This document shows positions 5,761 through 35,010 of a stretch of 64,000 nucleotides of DNA, piece by piece (position 1 is the stretch's first letter; every line of letters starts with the position of its first letter). Origin of the DNA: the human T2T-CHM13v2.0 reference genome, Homo sapiens; the NCBI RefSeq assembly GCF_009914755.1, contig NC_060946.1; one strand, written 5' to 3'. The position numbers were made by a program, and so were the translations under genes. The notes under the pieces were generated by a model, which was not told the origin of the DNA, did no database searches, and was given only the letters and a program-made list of their open reading frames with translations.

Positions 5761-6653
5761 AAAGGCAATGCTCTTTGTACAGAGGAAAGCTGACCATACC
5801 CTCCTTCCCAGAGGCAGGCAGCGCAAATTGGAACTGGGAGGTGTTTTAACTCTAATCAAATTCAAAGTTTTGATTATTACACAAGAGTGGGTATCTAATT
5901 ATCAACTGAGACTTTGTCTTCTGACAAAGTAACTATAGAATTCTTTATGAATAAACAGAAGAAACCTAAAGTCTGGTGGAGTTTTCACCTAGACCAAGAG
6001 GGAAATTTATCTCACTAAATAAATTCTAAAGGGGGAATGAGCTATAACATACAGTTTTGATTGCATCCCACCAGTTATGCCTGTTCAGCATAAAGTTACA
6101 ATCCACTGCTGAGTCATGGTCACCATAAGCAGTCATTGCTCCCAAACATGAGACAGAAGGCTAACCCAGCCCATGGATGAAATGCTCTCCACAAGTGTAC
6201 GTGAGATGGACTTTAAATATTTCCTCCTCTTAATTCAGGCCACCTTGGTGATGTACTCTTGCTATAGGTGTGGTTGGAGAGTTTTCTGGAAGCATCTCTC
6301 TCACTGCTATACTTCCACTGCTATACCCTGAATACATAGATTCCTAAAGGTTGACTTGCCAACAGCCAAGCTGAGCACTGACCTCAGAAAAGCAATTCTT
6401 CCTTCCGGTTATGCATAATCTGGGGAAGTGCCTTCCAAAGACAGAGAAAGAGGGCAGTGATCCCTGAGACTGGCTGCATGCATGTCCAAAGAGCACAGGA
6501 GGAAAGGAAGGTGAGTGAAGGTAGCACTGTGCATGTGGTGATGAGGGAAAGGGTACTTCTGGGCTGGTGGGTGCCTGCTCTACTTTTCTGCACAGCCAAG
6601 CTAAAAGCACTGCCCCTTTGACGCTGCCCTGGCTGGAGAAGCAAAGGACTCAC

Positions 6654-6831
6654 AGGGGCAGGTCCAGCGGCAGCCACAGGTGTCTTCCACTTTAACAGGG
6701 GACTGGCTGTTAGGGCATGAAGGCCTCGGCCCCCGGTCACAGTTGACCCGATGACTCTTCAGCAAGGTCTGGCCATCTGGCTGGCAAGTCACGGTGTGGC
6801 ACTGGTCTGGCAAGGTCCAGACGTCCCCGGG
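6654..6831 (-). pseudogene. VWFP1: VWF exon 34 copy (178 bp), last exon seen
   Basis: [34 protein letters not shown]...CGCRWTCP; CAG|CCC and CCT|GTGAGT. Confidence 0.96.
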
Positions 6832-7123
6832 CTGCAGAAGAAAACAGCAGATTCAGGCAGGGAATAAGATGAGGTACTCCAACTCTAAGCCCATCTGCCA
6901 GACAACTGACCCCTAGAATTGAACACGGGCCTACACAGCAAGGAGGCCTCCTGTACATGAGACAGGAAGCAAAACACAAGATGTACAGATGGACCCTCAA
7001 AAACAAGATAATAGTAAGAGGAAGCGCTGGACTAAGATCAAAGGAGGAAAAATTAAACAGTGGGAACAAGAGCCCCAAACACATCTCTAATCTTTCTTTC
7101 AAAGTCAACAGAAAGGAACTTAC

Positions 7124-7167
7124 CCTCTTCTCATTCCCATCCTCATCCATGCGAATCCTAACAAATC
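7124..7167 (-). pseudogene. VWFP1: VWF exon 33 copy (44 bp); C1879R
   Basis: FVRIRMDEDGNEKR (VWF: FVRICMDED); CAG|GA and AGG|GTAAGT. Confidence 0.94.
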
Positions 7168-7719
7168 CTGCAACAGACACAAATAAGACCTTAGTTCCCA
7201 TCTTTCACCCAGAAATTCTGAACCATTCACAATGTCTGCTTAAGCAACCTGGTCTAGTTTTTGAAGTCAACTCAACTCTGAAAAGAATCTGAACAAGGTT
7301 AACAGTGGAGACCTAGGGACATGTGGCTGAGGTGGTCATCCTGTGGTTCTTCAGACATGCTCTGCGGTTGTTAATAATTATGATGTCAACAACAGCGATA
7401 ATATGGCAATAACTACAGCTTACGCTGTCATTATCTTGGTTCACATGTAGATCACGCCAGGGATGGGGAAGGTGGGGAGATGAAGCAAGATCCTGGAAAC
7501 CTGAAAGAGATCTACTTGAAGATTCCTACCAGGAGAGCTGCCATCTCTCTGTACAGCTAATGTGATTTGCTATAAGTCAAAACTTGTGTAGAGTTATTGC
7601 CCTTTAAGGGCAAACTTGCACTGACTTATTCCCCTGAAAGACAGTAGCTTTATGCAGGTTTTGACTTACATCTAGTAACGGGAAAATATATAAACCCAGG
7701 CCTCCCCCCAAAAAAAGCA

Positions 7720-32400: not shown

Positions 32401-33020
32401 CGGAATAAAGGGGAAAACGAATCTATCTTATGCAACGATCCTCTTCTAGGTTACAGAAAGATTTGAAAGGCTGACATGATCATTGTTAAATTTCTTCTAG
32501 AAGTCTATGATTAGTATCATAGATAAAACTCATGAGATAAAATATTCACAATGAATGTTTGTGAACTGCATCAATTATTATGGAACTACTGTCTAACATC
32601 CCTTTGAAAATTGATATTCTGCAAAGGTTAAAAAAACACCAACCTTTCTGTGCTTTCTTATATGGATGAGGTTTTGTAAACAAGAACTAAGCTTCACAAA
32701 TAAGCACTATGGAAGATAATGTTCTATGTTAATTTAAACCTAAGTAATCCAGAAGTTGGCCTTGATAAATAATGGGTTTAATTAATATTTTTGACCCCAG
32801 CAGTGCAAATACTTTTACTTACATTTTACTAAAGCTAGATTTGACAAATCTAAGGGTATTTAATTTATCAGTAGCTGTTATCAGTCAGATGAAAACTTCC
32901 CCATCAATACCTTCTAATGGTTCAAAAATAAATTGTTACTCCCACAGATACATTGTTTTTCCATGCGTAAGCAAGCACATTAATTTCAGGTTCTCAATGC
33001 ACAAAAATATTATTACCACT

Positions 33021-33518
33021 TGTGATAGGCTGCATAATAGTCCCAAAAGATGTTCTTGGCCTAATCTCCAGGCCCTGGGAATGTGCTGCCTTACACAGCC
33101 AAAGGGACTTGTAGATATGATTAAGTTAAGGATCTTGAGACAAAGTGATTATCCCAGATCATCTATGTGAGTCCAAAGTAATCACAGGAGTCTTTAGATG
33201 AAGTAGAGAGAAGGACTCAAAGTTAAAGGAGGAGACAATGCGGAGACAGAAACAGAAATAAGAGCAATGCACCTTGAAAATGGAGGAATGGGTAAAAGAC
33301 AATGAATACAGGTGCCACTAGAAGCAGAAAAAGGCAAGAGAATGGATTCTCCCCTCAGCACCTCGAGAAGGAACCAACACGGCAGACACATTGACTTAGC
33401 CTAATTAAAGTGATTTTGGACTTCTGACCTTTGAAACTGTAAGACGATAAATATGTGTTATTTTAAGTTATTTAAATGTGTGGTAATTTGTTATAGCAGC
33501 AGTAATGCAACTAATACA
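33021..33518 (+). mobile_element. MLT1 (C/D-like) solo LTR with CCACT TSD
   Basis: TG...CA termini; gattaagttaaggatcttgaga; ttgttatagcagca...aactaataca; CCACT on both sides. Confidence 0.9.
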
Positions 33519-34439
33519 CCACTACAATAAGCAAAGGAAATACAGTGCAATAGTGACAAACTTAAGGGATTCCAGAAAGGAGAAATGAAGTGGTAAACTC
33601 AATCACAGGATTATATTAGTAACTGTATTATATGTTACTTGCTTACCCTTTCAATCATATTATTGCTGTAATTATCATTATCATCCAATCAATATGATTA
33701 CACTAGTACGTATAACTTAGAGATGAAAATTTTTTTCTATTTCACCCTTCCCATAATTCCATGCAGCTACCCCTAAGCAACCGTGTATCTGATGGAGCTA
33801 ATATTTTCATGGAAAAATCTTCCATGTTAAGCAGAAAATTTACATCTAAAATTAAATTCCTTTAAGCCAGTCTGGGGACAATACCTAGAAAATTCAAATA
33901 TTACTTCTCAAGAATACCACTAGCAGTGAGTTTGTGATGCTCTCTTCCACCAACTGAAAATTAATTTTAAAGATTTTCAAAGCAATATTTTAAAAAATCG
34001 TGTACAAATTTTTCCTCTTGGTAAAAATAAACCACTTCTCAACCCTCCATTATATTTATGTTAATTACATGAAGTCCATACATGAATTATCATACCACAA
34101 ATAGAAAACTATTTAAATAGAAAAATCTCACTTGGTGCTGACAGTAAATTAAGTTGAAAGGAAAAGAGTCCCAACTCCCACCCCCAAACTTAGAGACCAA
34201 GGTTGCCTTGTCACATTCTGTGCCCAGACCTTCTACTTCCACGCCTTCCCAATCCTTTCCTTGGCTTGGAAAATTGGGCATGAGGCAAGCAAAAGGAAGG
34301 ACAGAAGGCCAAAATGGGCATCCGGGAAACCAAATTTCTGTCTTAAAAGCTTGTCTAGAAACACATACATAATGCTTGCCTTTGGGGACATTTCCTAAAA
34401 CCCCATTCACTTAAGCTAATTCCATCCGAATGCCTCCAT

Positions 34440-35010
34440 GCTGGCTGTGAGGATCGCAACCACCCACCGCCCATCCGCCCACTCGCAGACTGTGCAGCTA
34501 CCGCCAAAACCTTCCGTGAATTTGGGAAATATAAAGGCAGCAGTGCTTGGGGGAGCTGAGCAGCCTCGCCAATTCCACGTCTCTGGTTCGAGACCCCTCC
34601 GTTCACCTCTTTGCCGAGCTCACCTGGAGTCAGGTTTAGACGACAGCCTCCACCCAGGGGGACTGGGAAGCAACCCTGGGAAGCTCCGCAGCGTCCGTGT
34701 GAATAATGAGCGCAGCGCAGCGGAACAGCTCCCCCCCGGACCTGCTGCTCCGGCTGCTCCCCGATTTCTTCCACTCTCTGTCTGGGAGCCGTCTTTCCTT
34801 TTCTTTCCTCTCCCTCCCCTGCCTGCAGCTACCGCGCTCCCTTCTCCTGGTGGTGGCGCAGGGCTGTCCTTCCGCCTCCCTCCTCCAGGCGCAGGAGCTG
34901 CCCGTGCTACTAATGAGCAGGCTCCAGGCTCCTCCCGGTCTGGGGTGCGCACAAGCCCCACGCCAGAAACGAGTTCCCAGGAGCAGAGCTATGGATATGC
35001 CTTGTGCGGC
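34440..35010 (-). promoter_or_regulatory. CpG island / promoter-like region, probable paralog of the ROBO2 isoform-a promoter
   Basis: Isolated GC- and CpG-rich ~570 bp in AT-rich DNA; purine-rich GA tract on the minus strand; ends in a strong splice donor. The ROBO2a identity is from memory only. Confidence 0.7.
34624..34790 (-). other. Non-coding first exon (ROBO2a exon 1-like paralog); 5' boundary approximate
   Basis: No ATG on the minus strand; ends ...GTCTAAACCTGACTCCAG|GTGAGC (consensus donor); resembles the ROBO2a 5'UTR as I recall it. Confidence 0.62.

What the first reader, a model, noticed from the sequence alone, without database searches (positions are those of the whole stretch)
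6601..35010. Duplicated CpG-island promoter and first exon (ROBO2a-like) point into the promoterless VWF pseudogene: candidate chimeric transcription unit
Seen: a CpG island at ~34.4-35.0 kb contains an ATG-free minus-strand exon ending in CAG|GTGAGC (34624/34623). It has the same orientation as VWFP1, and the exon 23 acceptor lies 13.46 kb downstream. I see no ROBO2 exon 2 (MARRHERV...) in between. The intervening L1PA7 is antisense to the putative transcript, the better tolerated orientation. Established: VWFP1 lacks VWF exons 1-22 and the VWF promoter and is regarded as non-functional. From memory: this exon resembles ROBO2a exon 1 (3p12.3), a segment I recall being duplicated to pericentromeric sites. 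Inference: joining two duplicons may have given the VWF exons a developmental/neural promoter, a known route to new fusion transcripts. Reads from such an RNA would tend to mis-map to VWF or ROBO2.
Basis: partly seen in the sequence, partly recalled or inferred. Interest (0 to 1): 0.85.

Follow-up and report, generated by a model that had tools for sequence, protein, structure and literature searches.

The report
ROBO2 promoter copy upstream of VWFP1
A duplicated copy of the embryonic promoter and non-coding first exon of the ROBO2 gene lies 13.5 kb upstream of the von Willebrand factor pseudogene on chromosome 22 and points into it, so it could drive a hybrid non-coding RNA, but whether it does was not testable here.

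Summary
Window 34427-34977 is a CpG island, and 34911-34624 (minus strand) is a 288-nt, ATG-free copy of ROBO2a exon 1 ending in CAG|GTGAGC. It is 93-96% identical to chr3:75.96 Mb, and T2T-CHM13 shows no other copy. It belongs to a 42-kb ROBO2 5' duplicon. That duplicon is joined at window 22162-22167, by a non-homologous break, to a 25-kb VWF duplicon (intron 22 to intron 34) in the same orientation. ROBO2a exon 2 lies 13.1 kb beyond the duplicon end, so it is absent.

All 12 VWFP1 acceptors and 10 of 12 donors are intact; the donors of exons 23 and 25 are destroyed. The island keeps 29 of the parent's 41 CpGs, against 85 of 217 in the flanks, which argues for long-term germline hypomethylation.

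The exon-1 copy on 22q11.1 is already published (Darlow 2020, citing Yue 2006). GENCODE (2012) already reports a spliced transcript linking VWFP1 to ANKRD62P1. I found no paper on a ROBO2-to-VWFP1 link, and RefSeq annotates no transcript here.

The chimeric transcription unit is therefore structurally plausible but unproven (about 0.4). If real, the RNA is non-coding. Interest is modest: a new member of a known kind.

The parts
22162..64000 (-). ROBO2 5' duplicon. It is a copy of chr3:75924681-75977600 and runs on to chr22:17424212, 212 bp past the window end. It holds about 29.3 kb of upstream sequence, the ROBO2a promoter and exon 1, and 12.5 kb of intron 1.
   Evidence: blastn blocks at 94-96% identity; upper end mapped; substitution divergence 3.51% (1373 of 39071). 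Three chr3 stretches are missing from chr22: 5.65 kb, 0.45 kb and 4.85 kb.
34427..34977 (-). Copy of the ROBO2a CpG island
   Evidence: 551 bp, GC 0.626, 33 CpG, observed/expected 0.63, against 549 bp, 0.656, 41 CpG and 0.72 in chr3. 29 CpGs are shared, 4 are chr22-only and 12 are chr3-only.
34624..34911 (-). Copy of non-coding ROBO2a exon 1 (288 nt, no ATG)
   Evidence: RefSeq ROBO2 gene start chr3:75959914 maps to window 34911. 14 substitutions in 286 aligned nt plus two 1-nt insertions. 0 ATG.
34618..34626 (-). Exon-1 splice donor CAG|GTGAGC. The parent has CAG|GTGAGT, so the only change is T to C at position +6.
34144..34144 (.). Point where 4.85 kb of ROBO2 intron 1 (chr3:75960677-75965528) is missing, 480 bp downstream of the donor
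   Evidence: The chr3-only segment has no terminal direct repeats and contains a young Alu with a target-site duplication. The edges are shown. Read as a deletion in the chr22 lineage (inference).
25273..29499 (+). 5'-truncated L1 fragment, antisense to the putative RNA. It is also present in ROBO2 intron 1 on chr3, so it predates the duplication.
   Evidence: RefSeq repeat masking; RVT_1 match on the plus strand, E = 3.8e-19; L1 3' end and A-run near 29450; collinear in chr3.
22162..22167 (.). Junction between the ROBO2 intron 1 copy and the VWF intron 22 copy. It is non-homologous, with 3-4 nt of microhomology.
1..22167 (-). VWF duplicon. It is a copy of chr12:6009476-6034591 (intron 22 to intron 34) and continues below the window to chr22:17357058, where an internal ANKRD62 fragment begins.
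   Evidence: divergence 2.96% (649 of 21957).
21026..21166 (-). VWFP1 exon 23 copy. The acceptor is intact. The donor is destroyed (GT to CT at 21025-21024). An in-exon cryptic GTGAGC donor is kept at 21055.
20700..20813 (-). VWFP1 exon 24 copy. Both splice sites are intact and there are 0 mismatches in 114 nt.
18754..18910 (-). VWFP1 exon 25 copy. The donor is destroyed (GT to AT at 18753-18752).
17861..18019 (-). VWFP1 exon 26 copy. Splice sites are intact. There is an in-frame TAG at 17963-17961, and 8 mismatches in 159 nt.
16859..16994 (-). VWFP1 exon 27 copy, splice sites intact
13323..14701 (-). VWFP1 exon 28 copy (1379 nt). Splice sites are intact. There is an in-frame TAG at 14445-14443. 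VWA domains are still recognisable.
6654..11903 (-). VWFP1 exon 29-34 copies: 11903-11787, 11689-11549, 11266-11123, 8684-8520, 7167-7124 and 6831-6654. All acceptors and donors are intact.
63569..64000 (-). 3' exon of LINC01665, the only RefSeq gene in the window. It lies 28.7 kb upstream of the island on the same strand and straddles the distal edge of the chr3-derived sequence.

Best explanation
The interval is the head of a mosaic of gene fragments that all face the same way on the minus strand.

Anatomy. A 42-kb copy of the 5' end of ROBO2 carries about 29 kb of upstream DNA, the ROBO2a CpG-island promoter, non-coding exon 1 with its donor, and 12.5 kb of intron 1. It was joined by a non-homologous break to a 25-kb copy of VWF running from intron 22 to intron 34. 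That copy is in turn joined to an internal, promoterless fragment of ANKRD62.

Most likely working (inferred, not shown). The ROBO2a promoter copy still fires, weakly and probably in the germline, early embryo or fetal brain like its parent. Its exon-1 donor has lost its natural partner, ROBO2a exon 2. It therefore splices to the next competent acceptors 13.5-13.8 kb downstream, which are VWFP1 exons. Exons 24 and 26-34 keep both splice sites. Exon 23 could serve only through a cryptic donor. The RNA may run on into ANKRD62P1 and PARP4P3.

Product. The RNA would be non-coding. Exon 1 has no ATG, the first downstream ATGs open ORFs of 24-111 codons, and the VWF frame carries two stops. It would probably be sensitive to nonsense-mediated decay.

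Shown versus inferred. Shown: the anatomy, orientation, splice-site states, CpG retention and absence of exon 2. Inferred: promoter activity, the splice junction itself and the tissue pattern.
For: - Identity and orientation.
- Donor: intact except at position +6.
- ROBO2a exon 2: 13.1 kb beyond the duplicon end.
- VWFP1 splice sites: 12 of 12 acceptor AGs and 10 of 12 donor GTs kept.
- CpG island: still meets the classical criteria.
- CpG retention: the island keeps 29 of 41 parental CpGs, against 85 of 217 in the rest of the duplicon (p = 2.6e-4). Only 5 of the 41 show the deamination signature (TG or CA), against 112 of 217 in the flanks.
- Promoter candidates: it is the only non-repeat, non-coding-derived island upstream of VWFP1 in the window.
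- Neighbours lack promoters: the ANKRD62 fragment starts 27.9 kb inside its parent gene.
- RefSeq NR_040115.1 (ANKRD62P1-PARP4P3) begins in the middle of an open exon-like stretch with no AG before it, so it looks 5'-incomplete.
- GENCODE reports a seven-exon transcript joining VWFP1 to ANKRD62P1 and a nine-exon one joining ANKRD62P1 to PARP4P3 (PMC3491395, Fig. 3f legend). These need a promoter at or upstream of VWFP1.
- The parent promoter is active in fetal brain and embryo (PMC7010700 introduction, citing Yue 2006).
Against: - No expression, CAGE, chromatin or methylation data were available.
- RefSeq RS_2025_08 on T2T annotates no gene, promoter, enhancer or CAGE cluster in window 1-63568. 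It has only a silencer fragment in the exon 28 copy, and not even VWFP1.
- The island has a net loss of 8 CpGs (41 to 33). There are 12 chr3-only against 4 chr22-only sites (p = 0.077), and 5 against 0 deamination-type changes.
- Between -200 and -51 of the start site there are 8 substitutions and a 14-bp indel.
- 4.85 kb just downstream of the donor is missing.
- Distal ROBO2 enhancers need not have been copied.
- Exon 23 and exon 25 donors are dead.
- Published RNA-seq lists that include VWFP1 place it with endothelial genes. That fits mis-assigned VWF reads better than a ROBO2a-like pattern.
- No paper in the searched library links ROBO2 with VWFP1.
- The text does not say where the GENCODE seven-exon transcript starts.
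Confidence: 0.4

Rival explanations
1. Silent relic. The ROBO2a promoter copy is inactive in its pericentromeric setting, through lack of enhancers or through heterochromatin. No RNA starts there. Any VWFP1-containing RNA starts elsewhere (a cryptic or repeat-borne promoter, or the CpG-rich exon 28 copy) or is an artefact of VWF reads and cDNAs.
For: - No RefSeq transcript, promoter or CAGE element in window 1-63568.
- Net loss of 8 CpGs, a 14-bp indel and 8 substitutions in the proximal promoter, and a 4.85-kb deletion next to the donor.
- The parent promoter is nearly embryo-restricted.
- VWFP1 appears in RNA-seq lists alongside endothelial genes.
- A second CpG-rich stretch exists inside the exon 28 copy (14091-14560).
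Against: - CpG retention in the island is far above the flanks (29 of 41 against 85 of 217). Deamination-type loss is low (5 of 41 against 112 of 217). This is hard to reconcile with roughly 3.5% divergence spent methylated in the germline.
- The donor and the core region from -50 to +50 are well kept: 97 of 102 columns identical.
- GENCODE's connecting transcripts need some upstream promoter.
Confidence: 0.35
2. Active but not chimeric. The promoter copy fires, but its RNA ends or splices within the 12.5 kb of ROBO2 intron 1 remnant, at cryptic exons or poly(A) sites including the antisense L1. Alternatively it mainly makes divergent plus-strand RNA. Either way it does not reach the VWFP1 exons.
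For: - The same evidence for promoter competence as the main explanation.
- 13.5 kb of repeat-containing sequence, with an L1 at 25273-29499, lies between the donor and exon 23.
- The first VWFP1 exon lacks its donor, which weakens its exon definition.
Against: - In the parent gene the same donor bridges a 30.5-kb intron that contains the same L1.
- Exon 24, 353 bp beyond exon 23, has both splice sites and is identical to VWF (0 of 114 mismatches).
- No cryptic exon was identified here, though none was searched for with a trained splice model.
Confidence: 0.2

Closest known systems
ROBO2a promoter and exon 1 at 3p12.3 (parent locus), with its published 22q11.1 copy (Darlow et al. 2020, PMC7010700; Yue et al. 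2006, as cited there)
   Same: Same CpG island, non-coding exon 1 and donor. Identity is 93-96%. The paper states that a very similar copy of the exon and its surroundings lies on 22q11.1, and it designed primers to avoid it.
   Different: The paper treats the copy only as a PCR nuisance ('non-coding copies'). It does not mention VWF or any pseudogene ('pseudogene' occurs 0 times). The copy lacks exon 2, has lost a net 8 CpGs, and has a 4.85-kb intronic deletion. The paper's Supplementary Fig. S1 (chr3/chr22 alignment) could not be seen.
GENCODE/HAVANA transcripts connecting VWFP1, ANKRD62P1 and PARP4P3 (Pei et al. 2012, PMC3491395, Fig. 3f legend); RefSeq ANKRD62P1-PARP4P3 readthrough NR_040115.1
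   Same: Spliced RNAs that run through adjacent duplicated pseudogenes on the same strand in this very locus. They show that VWFP1 exons are used in at least one curated model.
   Different: The legend does not say where the seven-exon transcript starts or whether it includes the ROBO2-derived exon. The figure could not be viewed. RefSeq on T2T holds only the ANKRD62P1-PARP4P3 model.
Mosaic transcripts at duplicon junctions in the chromosome 22 pericentromere (Bailey et al. 2002, Am J Hum Genet 70:83)
   Same: The same concept and the same chromosome region: juxtaposed duplicons giving new exon combinations.
   Different: I saw only the title, in a reference list. The paper is not held, so I cannot say whether this junction is among its cases.
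Partial-duplication fusion genes such as CHRFAM7A (recalled, not checked here)
   Same: An internal fragment of one gene acquires 5' exons and a promoter from another duplicated gene.
   Different: CHRFAM7A is expressed and translated. Here the downstream exons carry stops and two dead donors, and expression is unproven.

Membership tests
CpG island (Gardiner-Garden and Frommer sequence criteria; criteria recalled) | At least 200 bp, GC at least 50%, observed/expected CpG at least 0.6 | tested here: met
   Window 34977-34427: 551 bp, GC 0.626, o/e 0.63. An independent scan gives 34381-34910.
Active CpG-island promoter | Unmethylated state, H3K4me3, and transcription start sites (CAGE) at this paralogue | not testable with these tools
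   No read, methylation or chromatin data were available. The only indirect evidence is CpG retention: 29 of 41 against 85 of 217 in the flanks. RefSeq lists no promoter or CAGE element here.
Segmental duplication of the ROBO2 5' end | At least 1 kb at 90% identity or more to the parent locus, collinear, including promoter and exon 1 | tested here: met
   42 kb in 9 collinear blocks at 94-96% identity to chr3:75924681-75977600.
Segmental duplication of the ROBO2 5' end | Contains ROBO2a exon 2 (start codon) | tested here: not met
   The motif is absent from the window. Exon 2 is at chr3:75990735, 13.1 kb past the duplicon end.
VWFP1 (unprocessed VWF pseudogene, exons 23-34) | Copies of exons 23-34 with their introns, about 97% identical to VWF, on 22q11 | tested here: met
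   12 exon copies with introns were mapped. 71 of 2875 exon nt differ. The duplicon is 96-97% identical. The parent exon chain has 0 stops, which validates the boundaries. The exon 23 ORF matches VWF structures.
VWFP1 (unprocessed VWF pseudogene, exons 23-34) | Disabling lesions (nonsense and splice-site changes) | tested here: met
   Two in-frame TAG codons (exons 26 and 28) and two destroyed donors (exons 23 and 25).
Chimeric (mosaic) transcription unit across a duplicon junction | Promoter and donor upstream, acceptors downstream, same strand, no intervening partner exon | tested here: met
Chimeric (mosaic) transcription unit across a duplicon junction | RNA molecules that contain the junction | not testable with these tools
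   Sequencing reads are off for this job. No paper was found.
Chimeric (mosaic) transcription unit across a duplicon junction | An annotated transcript model spanning both duplicons | tested here: not met
   RefSeq RS_2025_08 on T2T has none in window 1-63568. GENCODE models could not be inspected. The 2012 legend links VWFP1 only to ANKRD62P1.

The most novel reading that the evidence does not exclude
The ROBO2a CpG-island copy is the single promoter of a great-ape-specific non-coding gene of about 65 kb, assembled from four unrelated duplicons: ROBO2 exon 1, then VWF exons 24-34, then internal ANKRD62 exons, then PARP4 exons. It would be expressed with a ROBO2a-like embryonic, neural or germline pattern. 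The separately annotated VWFP1, ANKRD62P1 and ANKRD62P1-PARP4P3 models would then be 5'-incomplete pieces of one transcription unit. Its reads would be routinely mis-assigned to VWF or ROBO2, or called as ROBO2-VWF fusions.
Probability: 0.2. Interest if true: 0.45.

Novelty: new member of a known kind. Interest (0 to 1): 0.3.

Why it matters
If the junction RNA exists, it would be a clear, datable example of promoter capture by juxtaposed duplicons. The divergence of about 3-3.5% suggests a great-ape age; that date is my inference.

It would explain how promoterless fragments in the 22q11.1 pericentromere come to be transcribed.

It would also have practical consequences:
- VWF and ROBO2 expression estimates and fusion calls in embryonic, neural or testis RNA-seq could be contaminated by the paralogue.
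- VWFP1 'expression' used in prognostic signatures would need paralogue-aware mapping.

If it does not exist, the locus is simply a junction of two already known duplicons.

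Tried and rejected
(1) Missing intron segment. I asked whether the 4.85-kb chr3-only stretch just downstream of the donor held ROBO2a exon 2, because it contains a CpG-rich patch. 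That patch is a young Alu with a target-site duplication, and no exon-2 motif is present. Rejected.

(2) Fetching a VWF protein. I tried one search with the open exon-28 segment to get a long VWF protein for spliced alignment. It returned 2 proteins among 968 candidates, a gecko fragment and a fish collagen. A further 7032 candidates were left out before scoring as unnamed. This was useless. I defined exon boundaries instead from open segments, AG/GT sites and frame continuity. I validated them by 0 stops in the parent chain and by one match of the exon 23 ORF to solved VWF structures.

(3) Gene conversion. I tested whether the unusual CpG polymorphisms published for the chr3 island could be conversions from the chr22 copy. 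At 0 of 6 positions does chr22 carry the variant allele. Rejected.

(4) Complementary breakpoints. I tested whether the exon-2 copies elsewhere begin exactly where the chr22 copy ends. chr3:75977601-75980000 has no other copy apart from an Alu. Rejected.

(5) Literature. Thirteen papers hold 'VWFP1'. I read passages of five. Searches for ROBO2 with VWF, 22q11 and pseudogene, for ROBO2 with pericentromeric and segmental duplication, and for fusion-style names each found 0 papers. Searches on ANKRD62P1, LINC01665, cat eye syndrome and VWF pseudogene transcription gave nothing bearing on the question. Bailey 2002 and Yue 2006 are not held.

(6) RNA families. An Rfam scan of the whole window gave 0 matches.

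(7) Not done. No trained splice-site model was used; only consensus comparison and a crude home-made score. There was no outgroup, so CpG changes could not be polarised. The L1 subfamily was not assigned.

Full report
WHAT IS THERE

The minus strand of window 34200-35300 shows a GC-rich stretch ending in CAG|GTGAGC. The last exon base is 34624 and the first intron base is 34623. GC reaches 0.59-0.65 between 34500 and 35000, against 0.25-0.40 in the flanks.

A search of the whole T2T-CHM13 genome with window 34300-35100 found 2 of 2 matches: the window itself and chr3:75959739-75960523 (+), at 93% identity. RefSeq places the start of ROBO2 at chr3:75959914. That position aligns to window 34911.

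The exon-1 copy is therefore window 34911-34624 on the minus strand. It is 288 nt long, against 286 in chr3, with 14 substitutions and two 1-nt insertions. It holds no ATG.

Darlow et al. 2020 (PMC7010700; sections 3, 5, 6 and 7 read) describe ROBO2a exon 1 as entirely non-coding and 266, 267 or 286 bp long. They describe exon 2 as 122 bp with 13 non-coding bases. Both fit what I see.

Their 549-bp CpG island with 41 CpGs maps to T2T chr3:75959848-75960396 (GC 0.656, 41 CpG, o/e 0.72). That in turn maps to window 34977-34427 (551 bp, GC 0.626, 33 CpG, o/e 0.63).

EXTENT OF THE DUPLICONS

blastn of the window against fetched chr3 and chr12 stretches shows two duplicons. The junction was seen in the genome searches.
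- Window 64000 to 22162 is collinear with chr3:75924890-75977600, at 94-96% identity.
- Window 22167 to 1 is collinear with chr12:6034591-6012482, at 96-97% identity.

In both cases the window's minus strand is the sense strand of the parent gene: ROBO2 on chr3 (+) and VWF on chr12 (-).

The chr3-derived segment ends distally at chr22:17424212, equivalent to chr3:75924681. Altogether it covers 52.9 kb of chr3 in 42.05 kb of chr22.

Three chr3 stretches are missing from chr22:
- 5.65 kb (chr3:75935718-75941368).
- 0.45 kb (chr3:75958668-75959119). This is the 'gap in the homology' mentioned by Darlow et al..
- 4.85 kb (chr3:75960677-75965528), which starts 480 bp downstream of the donor.

The 4.85-kb stretch has no terminal direct repeats. 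Apart from a young Alu with a target-site duplication, it looks like unique intron. I read it as a deletion on the chr22 side (inference).

The L1 at 25273-29499 is on the plus strand. The evidence is an RVT_1 match at E = 3.8e-19 on that strand and its 3' end near 29450. It is present in chr3 as well. It is therefore ancestral to the duplication and antisense to the putative RNA. The subfamily was not tested.

The ROBO2/VWF junction at 22162-22167 is non-homologous, with 3-4 nt of microhomology.

The VWF duplicon continues below the window to chr22:17357058, equivalent to chr12:6009476, for 25.1 kb in all. From about chr22:17357040 a copy of chr18:12284463 onward begins. That point is 27.9 kb inside ANKRD62 (chr18:12256607-12344651). 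ANKRD62P1 is therefore also a promoterless internal fragment.

ROBO2a EXON 2

A degenerate pattern for it finds chr3:75990735 (+) and five near-identical copies, at chr13:10.98 Mb, chr20:26.23 Mb, chr21:8.01 Mb, chr22:6.46 Mb and chr22:11.22 Mb. These sit in duplicons at 90-97% identity.

Exon 2 is thus 13.1 kb past the end of the 22q11.1 duplicon. The parent intron 1 is about 30.5 kb. The exon-1 donor in chr22 has lost its natural partner.

VWFP1 EXONS

I located the twelve exons in chr12 from open segments, AG/GT sites and frame continuity. The joined parent chain of 2875 nt has 0 stops. The exon 23 ORF matches VWF residues 986-1039 of solved structures.

Mapped to the window, the exon copies are:

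| Exon | Window coordinates |
|---|---|
| 23 | 21166-21026 |
| 24 | 20813-20700 |
| 25 | 18910-18754 |
| 26 | 18019-17861 |
| 27 | 16994-16859 |
| 28 | 14701-13323 |
| 29 | 11903-11787 |
| 30 | 11689-11549 |
| 31 | 11266-11123 |
| 32 | 8684-8520 |
| 33 | 7167-7124 |
| 34 | 6831-6654 |

- 12 of 12 acceptors keep AG.
- 10 of 12 donors keep GT. Exon 23 has CT and exon 25 has AT.
- 71 of 2875 exon bases differ, with no indels.
- 27 codons differ synonymously and 43 non-synonymously.
- There are two in-frame TAG codons, in exon 26 (17963) and exon 28 (14445).
- Exon 23 keeps an internal GTGAGC at 21055 that could serve as a cryptic donor.
- The distance from 34623 to the exon 23 acceptor is 13,457 nt, and to the exon 24 acceptor 13,810 nt.

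IS THE PROMOTER COPY DECAYED?

With no outgroup, I compared CpG sites between the copies.
- In the island (609 aligned nt), 29 CpGs are shared, 12 are chr3-only and 4 are chr22-only.
- In the rest of the ROBO2 duplicon the numbers are 85, 132 and 112.
- Retention of parental CpGs in chr22 is 29 of 41 in the island against 85 of 217 in the flanks (Fisher p = 2.6e-4).
- Only 5 of the 41 are TG or CA in chr22, the deamination signature, against 112 of 217 in the flanks. The reverse count in the island is 0.
- The asymmetry of 12 against 4 gives p = 0.077.

I read this as follows. The chr22 island has spent most of its time since duplication protected from germline methylation, with slightly more erosion than the parent. 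This is indirect evidence for retained island status. It is not evidence for transcription.

The core region from -50 to +50 has 97 of 102 identical columns. The region from -200 to -51 has 8 substitutions and a 14-bp indel. The donor differs from the parent only at +6, T to C.

A scan of the window finds no other non-repeat island upstream of VWFP1. The other CpG-rich stretches are Alus and the exon 28 and exon 32 copies.

TRANSCRIPTION: WHAT IS KNOWN AND WHAT IS NOT

RefSeq RS_2025_08 on T2T has no gene row for VWFP1 at all. In window 1-63568 it lists only a silencer fragment at 13649-13806, inside the exon 28 copy.

The GENCODE pseudogene paper (PMC3491395; section 9 and the Fig. 3 legend read) states two things. 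[quoted passage not shown] The legend does not say where the first one starts, and figures are not held.

RefSeq NR_040115.1 (ANKRD62P1-PARP4P3) begins at chr22:17352093, inside an open, exon-like stretch with no AG before it. This suggests a 5'-incomplete cDNA (inference).

RNA-seq papers that list VWFP1 put it beside endothelial genes or in an endothelial signature. That is what mis-assigned VWF reads would give.

No paper in the library couples ROBO2 with VWFP1.

According to Darlow et al., citing Yue et al. [quoted passage not shown]

MECHANISM

The best-supported reading (confidence 0.4) is promoter capture.
- The ROBO2a promoter copy fires at a low level.
- Its orphan donor splices to VWFP1 exons. 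Exons 24 and 26-34 are the competent ones.
- The RNA may continue into ANKRD62P1 and PARP4P3.
- It would be non-coding. Exon 1 has no ATG. In six hypothetical exon combinations the first ATG opens 24-111 codons. The longest ATG-started ORF, 563 codons after the exon 28 stop, lies more than 760 nt downstream of the 5' end in every combination.

The rivals are a silent relic (0.35) and an active promoter whose RNA never reaches VWFP1 (0.2). All three fit the sequence. Only RNA, CAGE or methylation data can decide.

HISTORY (INFERENCE)

Substitution divergence is 3.51% for the ROBO2 duplicon (1373 of 39071) and 2.96% for the VWF duplicon (649 of 21957; p = 2e-4). Either the ROBO2 piece is older, or VWF and VWFP1 have been partly homogenised by the gene conversion reported in the VWD literature (abstract of PMC10430062, seen in the listing). 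Both values suggest a great-ape age; the date rests on recalled primate divergences.

chr20:26251335-26255532 is collinear with chr22:17421300-17425497 at 97% identity, straight through the distal edge of the chr3-derived sequence. It is closer to chr22 than either copy is to chr3 (96.1% and 95.7%). The 20p11.1 and 22q11.1 copies therefore share a secondary duplication. The chr20 copy lacks the island and window 54950-58200.

COMPARISON WITH WHAT IS KNOWN, AND VERDICT

Both components are known: VWFP1, and the 22q11.1 copy of ROBO2a exon 1. Multi-pseudogene transcripts are documented at this locus.

What I did not find in print is the adjacency and co-orientation of the two, read as a promoter-donor arrangement. 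If verified, it would be a further example of mosaic transcripts at pericentromeric duplicon junctions, not a new kind of thing.

Its practical value is in read mis-assignment to VWF or ROBO2 and in false fusion calls.

Interest is 0.3.

Noticed in passing
chr3:75990735 (L041); chr13:10983992 (L042); chr20:26234382 (L043); chr21:8009186; chr22:6458168; chr22:11224483: ROBO2a exon 2 (start codon) has five extra copies on 20p11.1 and the acrocentric short arms, in duplicons at 90-97% identity. Each carries one substitution in the eighth-residue motif. Exon 1 has only the 22q11.1 copy. The two exons were therefore dispersed separately.
   Followed up: partly
window 61298-64000 and chr22:17421300-17425497 (L045) against chr20:26251335-26255532 (L046): A 20p11.1 segment is 97% identical to the distal end of the ROBO2 duplicon. 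It stays collinear beyond the edge of the chr3-derived sequence (chr22:17424212). The chr20 and chr22 copies therefore share a secondary duplication. LINC01665 exon 2 straddles that edge and exon 1 lies outside the chr3-derived part.
   Followed up: partly
window 1-22167: The RefSeq RS_2025_08 gene table for T2T-CHM13 has no row for VWFP1, although all 12 exon copies are present here.
   Followed up: yes
window 13649-13806: A RefSeq 'silencer' fragment lies inside the VWFP1 exon 28 copy (14701-13323). It is the only functional element annotated in the finding's interval.
   Followed up: no
chr22:17357040-17357058 (L044) and chr18:12284463: The VWF duplicon abuts a fragment of ANKRD62 that starts 27.9 kb inside the parent gene. 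ANKRD62P1 is therefore promoterless too. RefSeq NR_040115.1 starts in mid-exon (chr22:17352093) and looks 5'-incomplete.
   Followed up: partly
whole window: The ROBO2 duplicon is more diverged from its parent (3.51%) than the VWF duplicon is from its parent (2.96%; p = 2e-4). Either it is older, or VWF and VWFP1 have been homogenised by gene conversion. Exon 24 has 0 of 114 mismatches and exon 26 has 8 of 159.
   Followed up: partly
window 34677-34977 against chr3:75959848-75960146: At the six published CpG-changing polymorphisms of the chr3 ROBO2a island, the chr22 copy carries the variant allele at 0 of 6. It has the reference base at the variant position at 5 (at c.-231 a neighbouring base differs) and a third base at c.-365. 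Conversion from the paralogue does not explain that variation.
   Followed up: yes
L035:4790-5110 (chr3:75964790-75965110): A young Alu with a 15-nt target-site duplication sits in the chr3-only 4.85-kb stretch of ROBO2 intron 1. It produces a second, spurious CpG-rich peak near the true island.
   Followed up: yes
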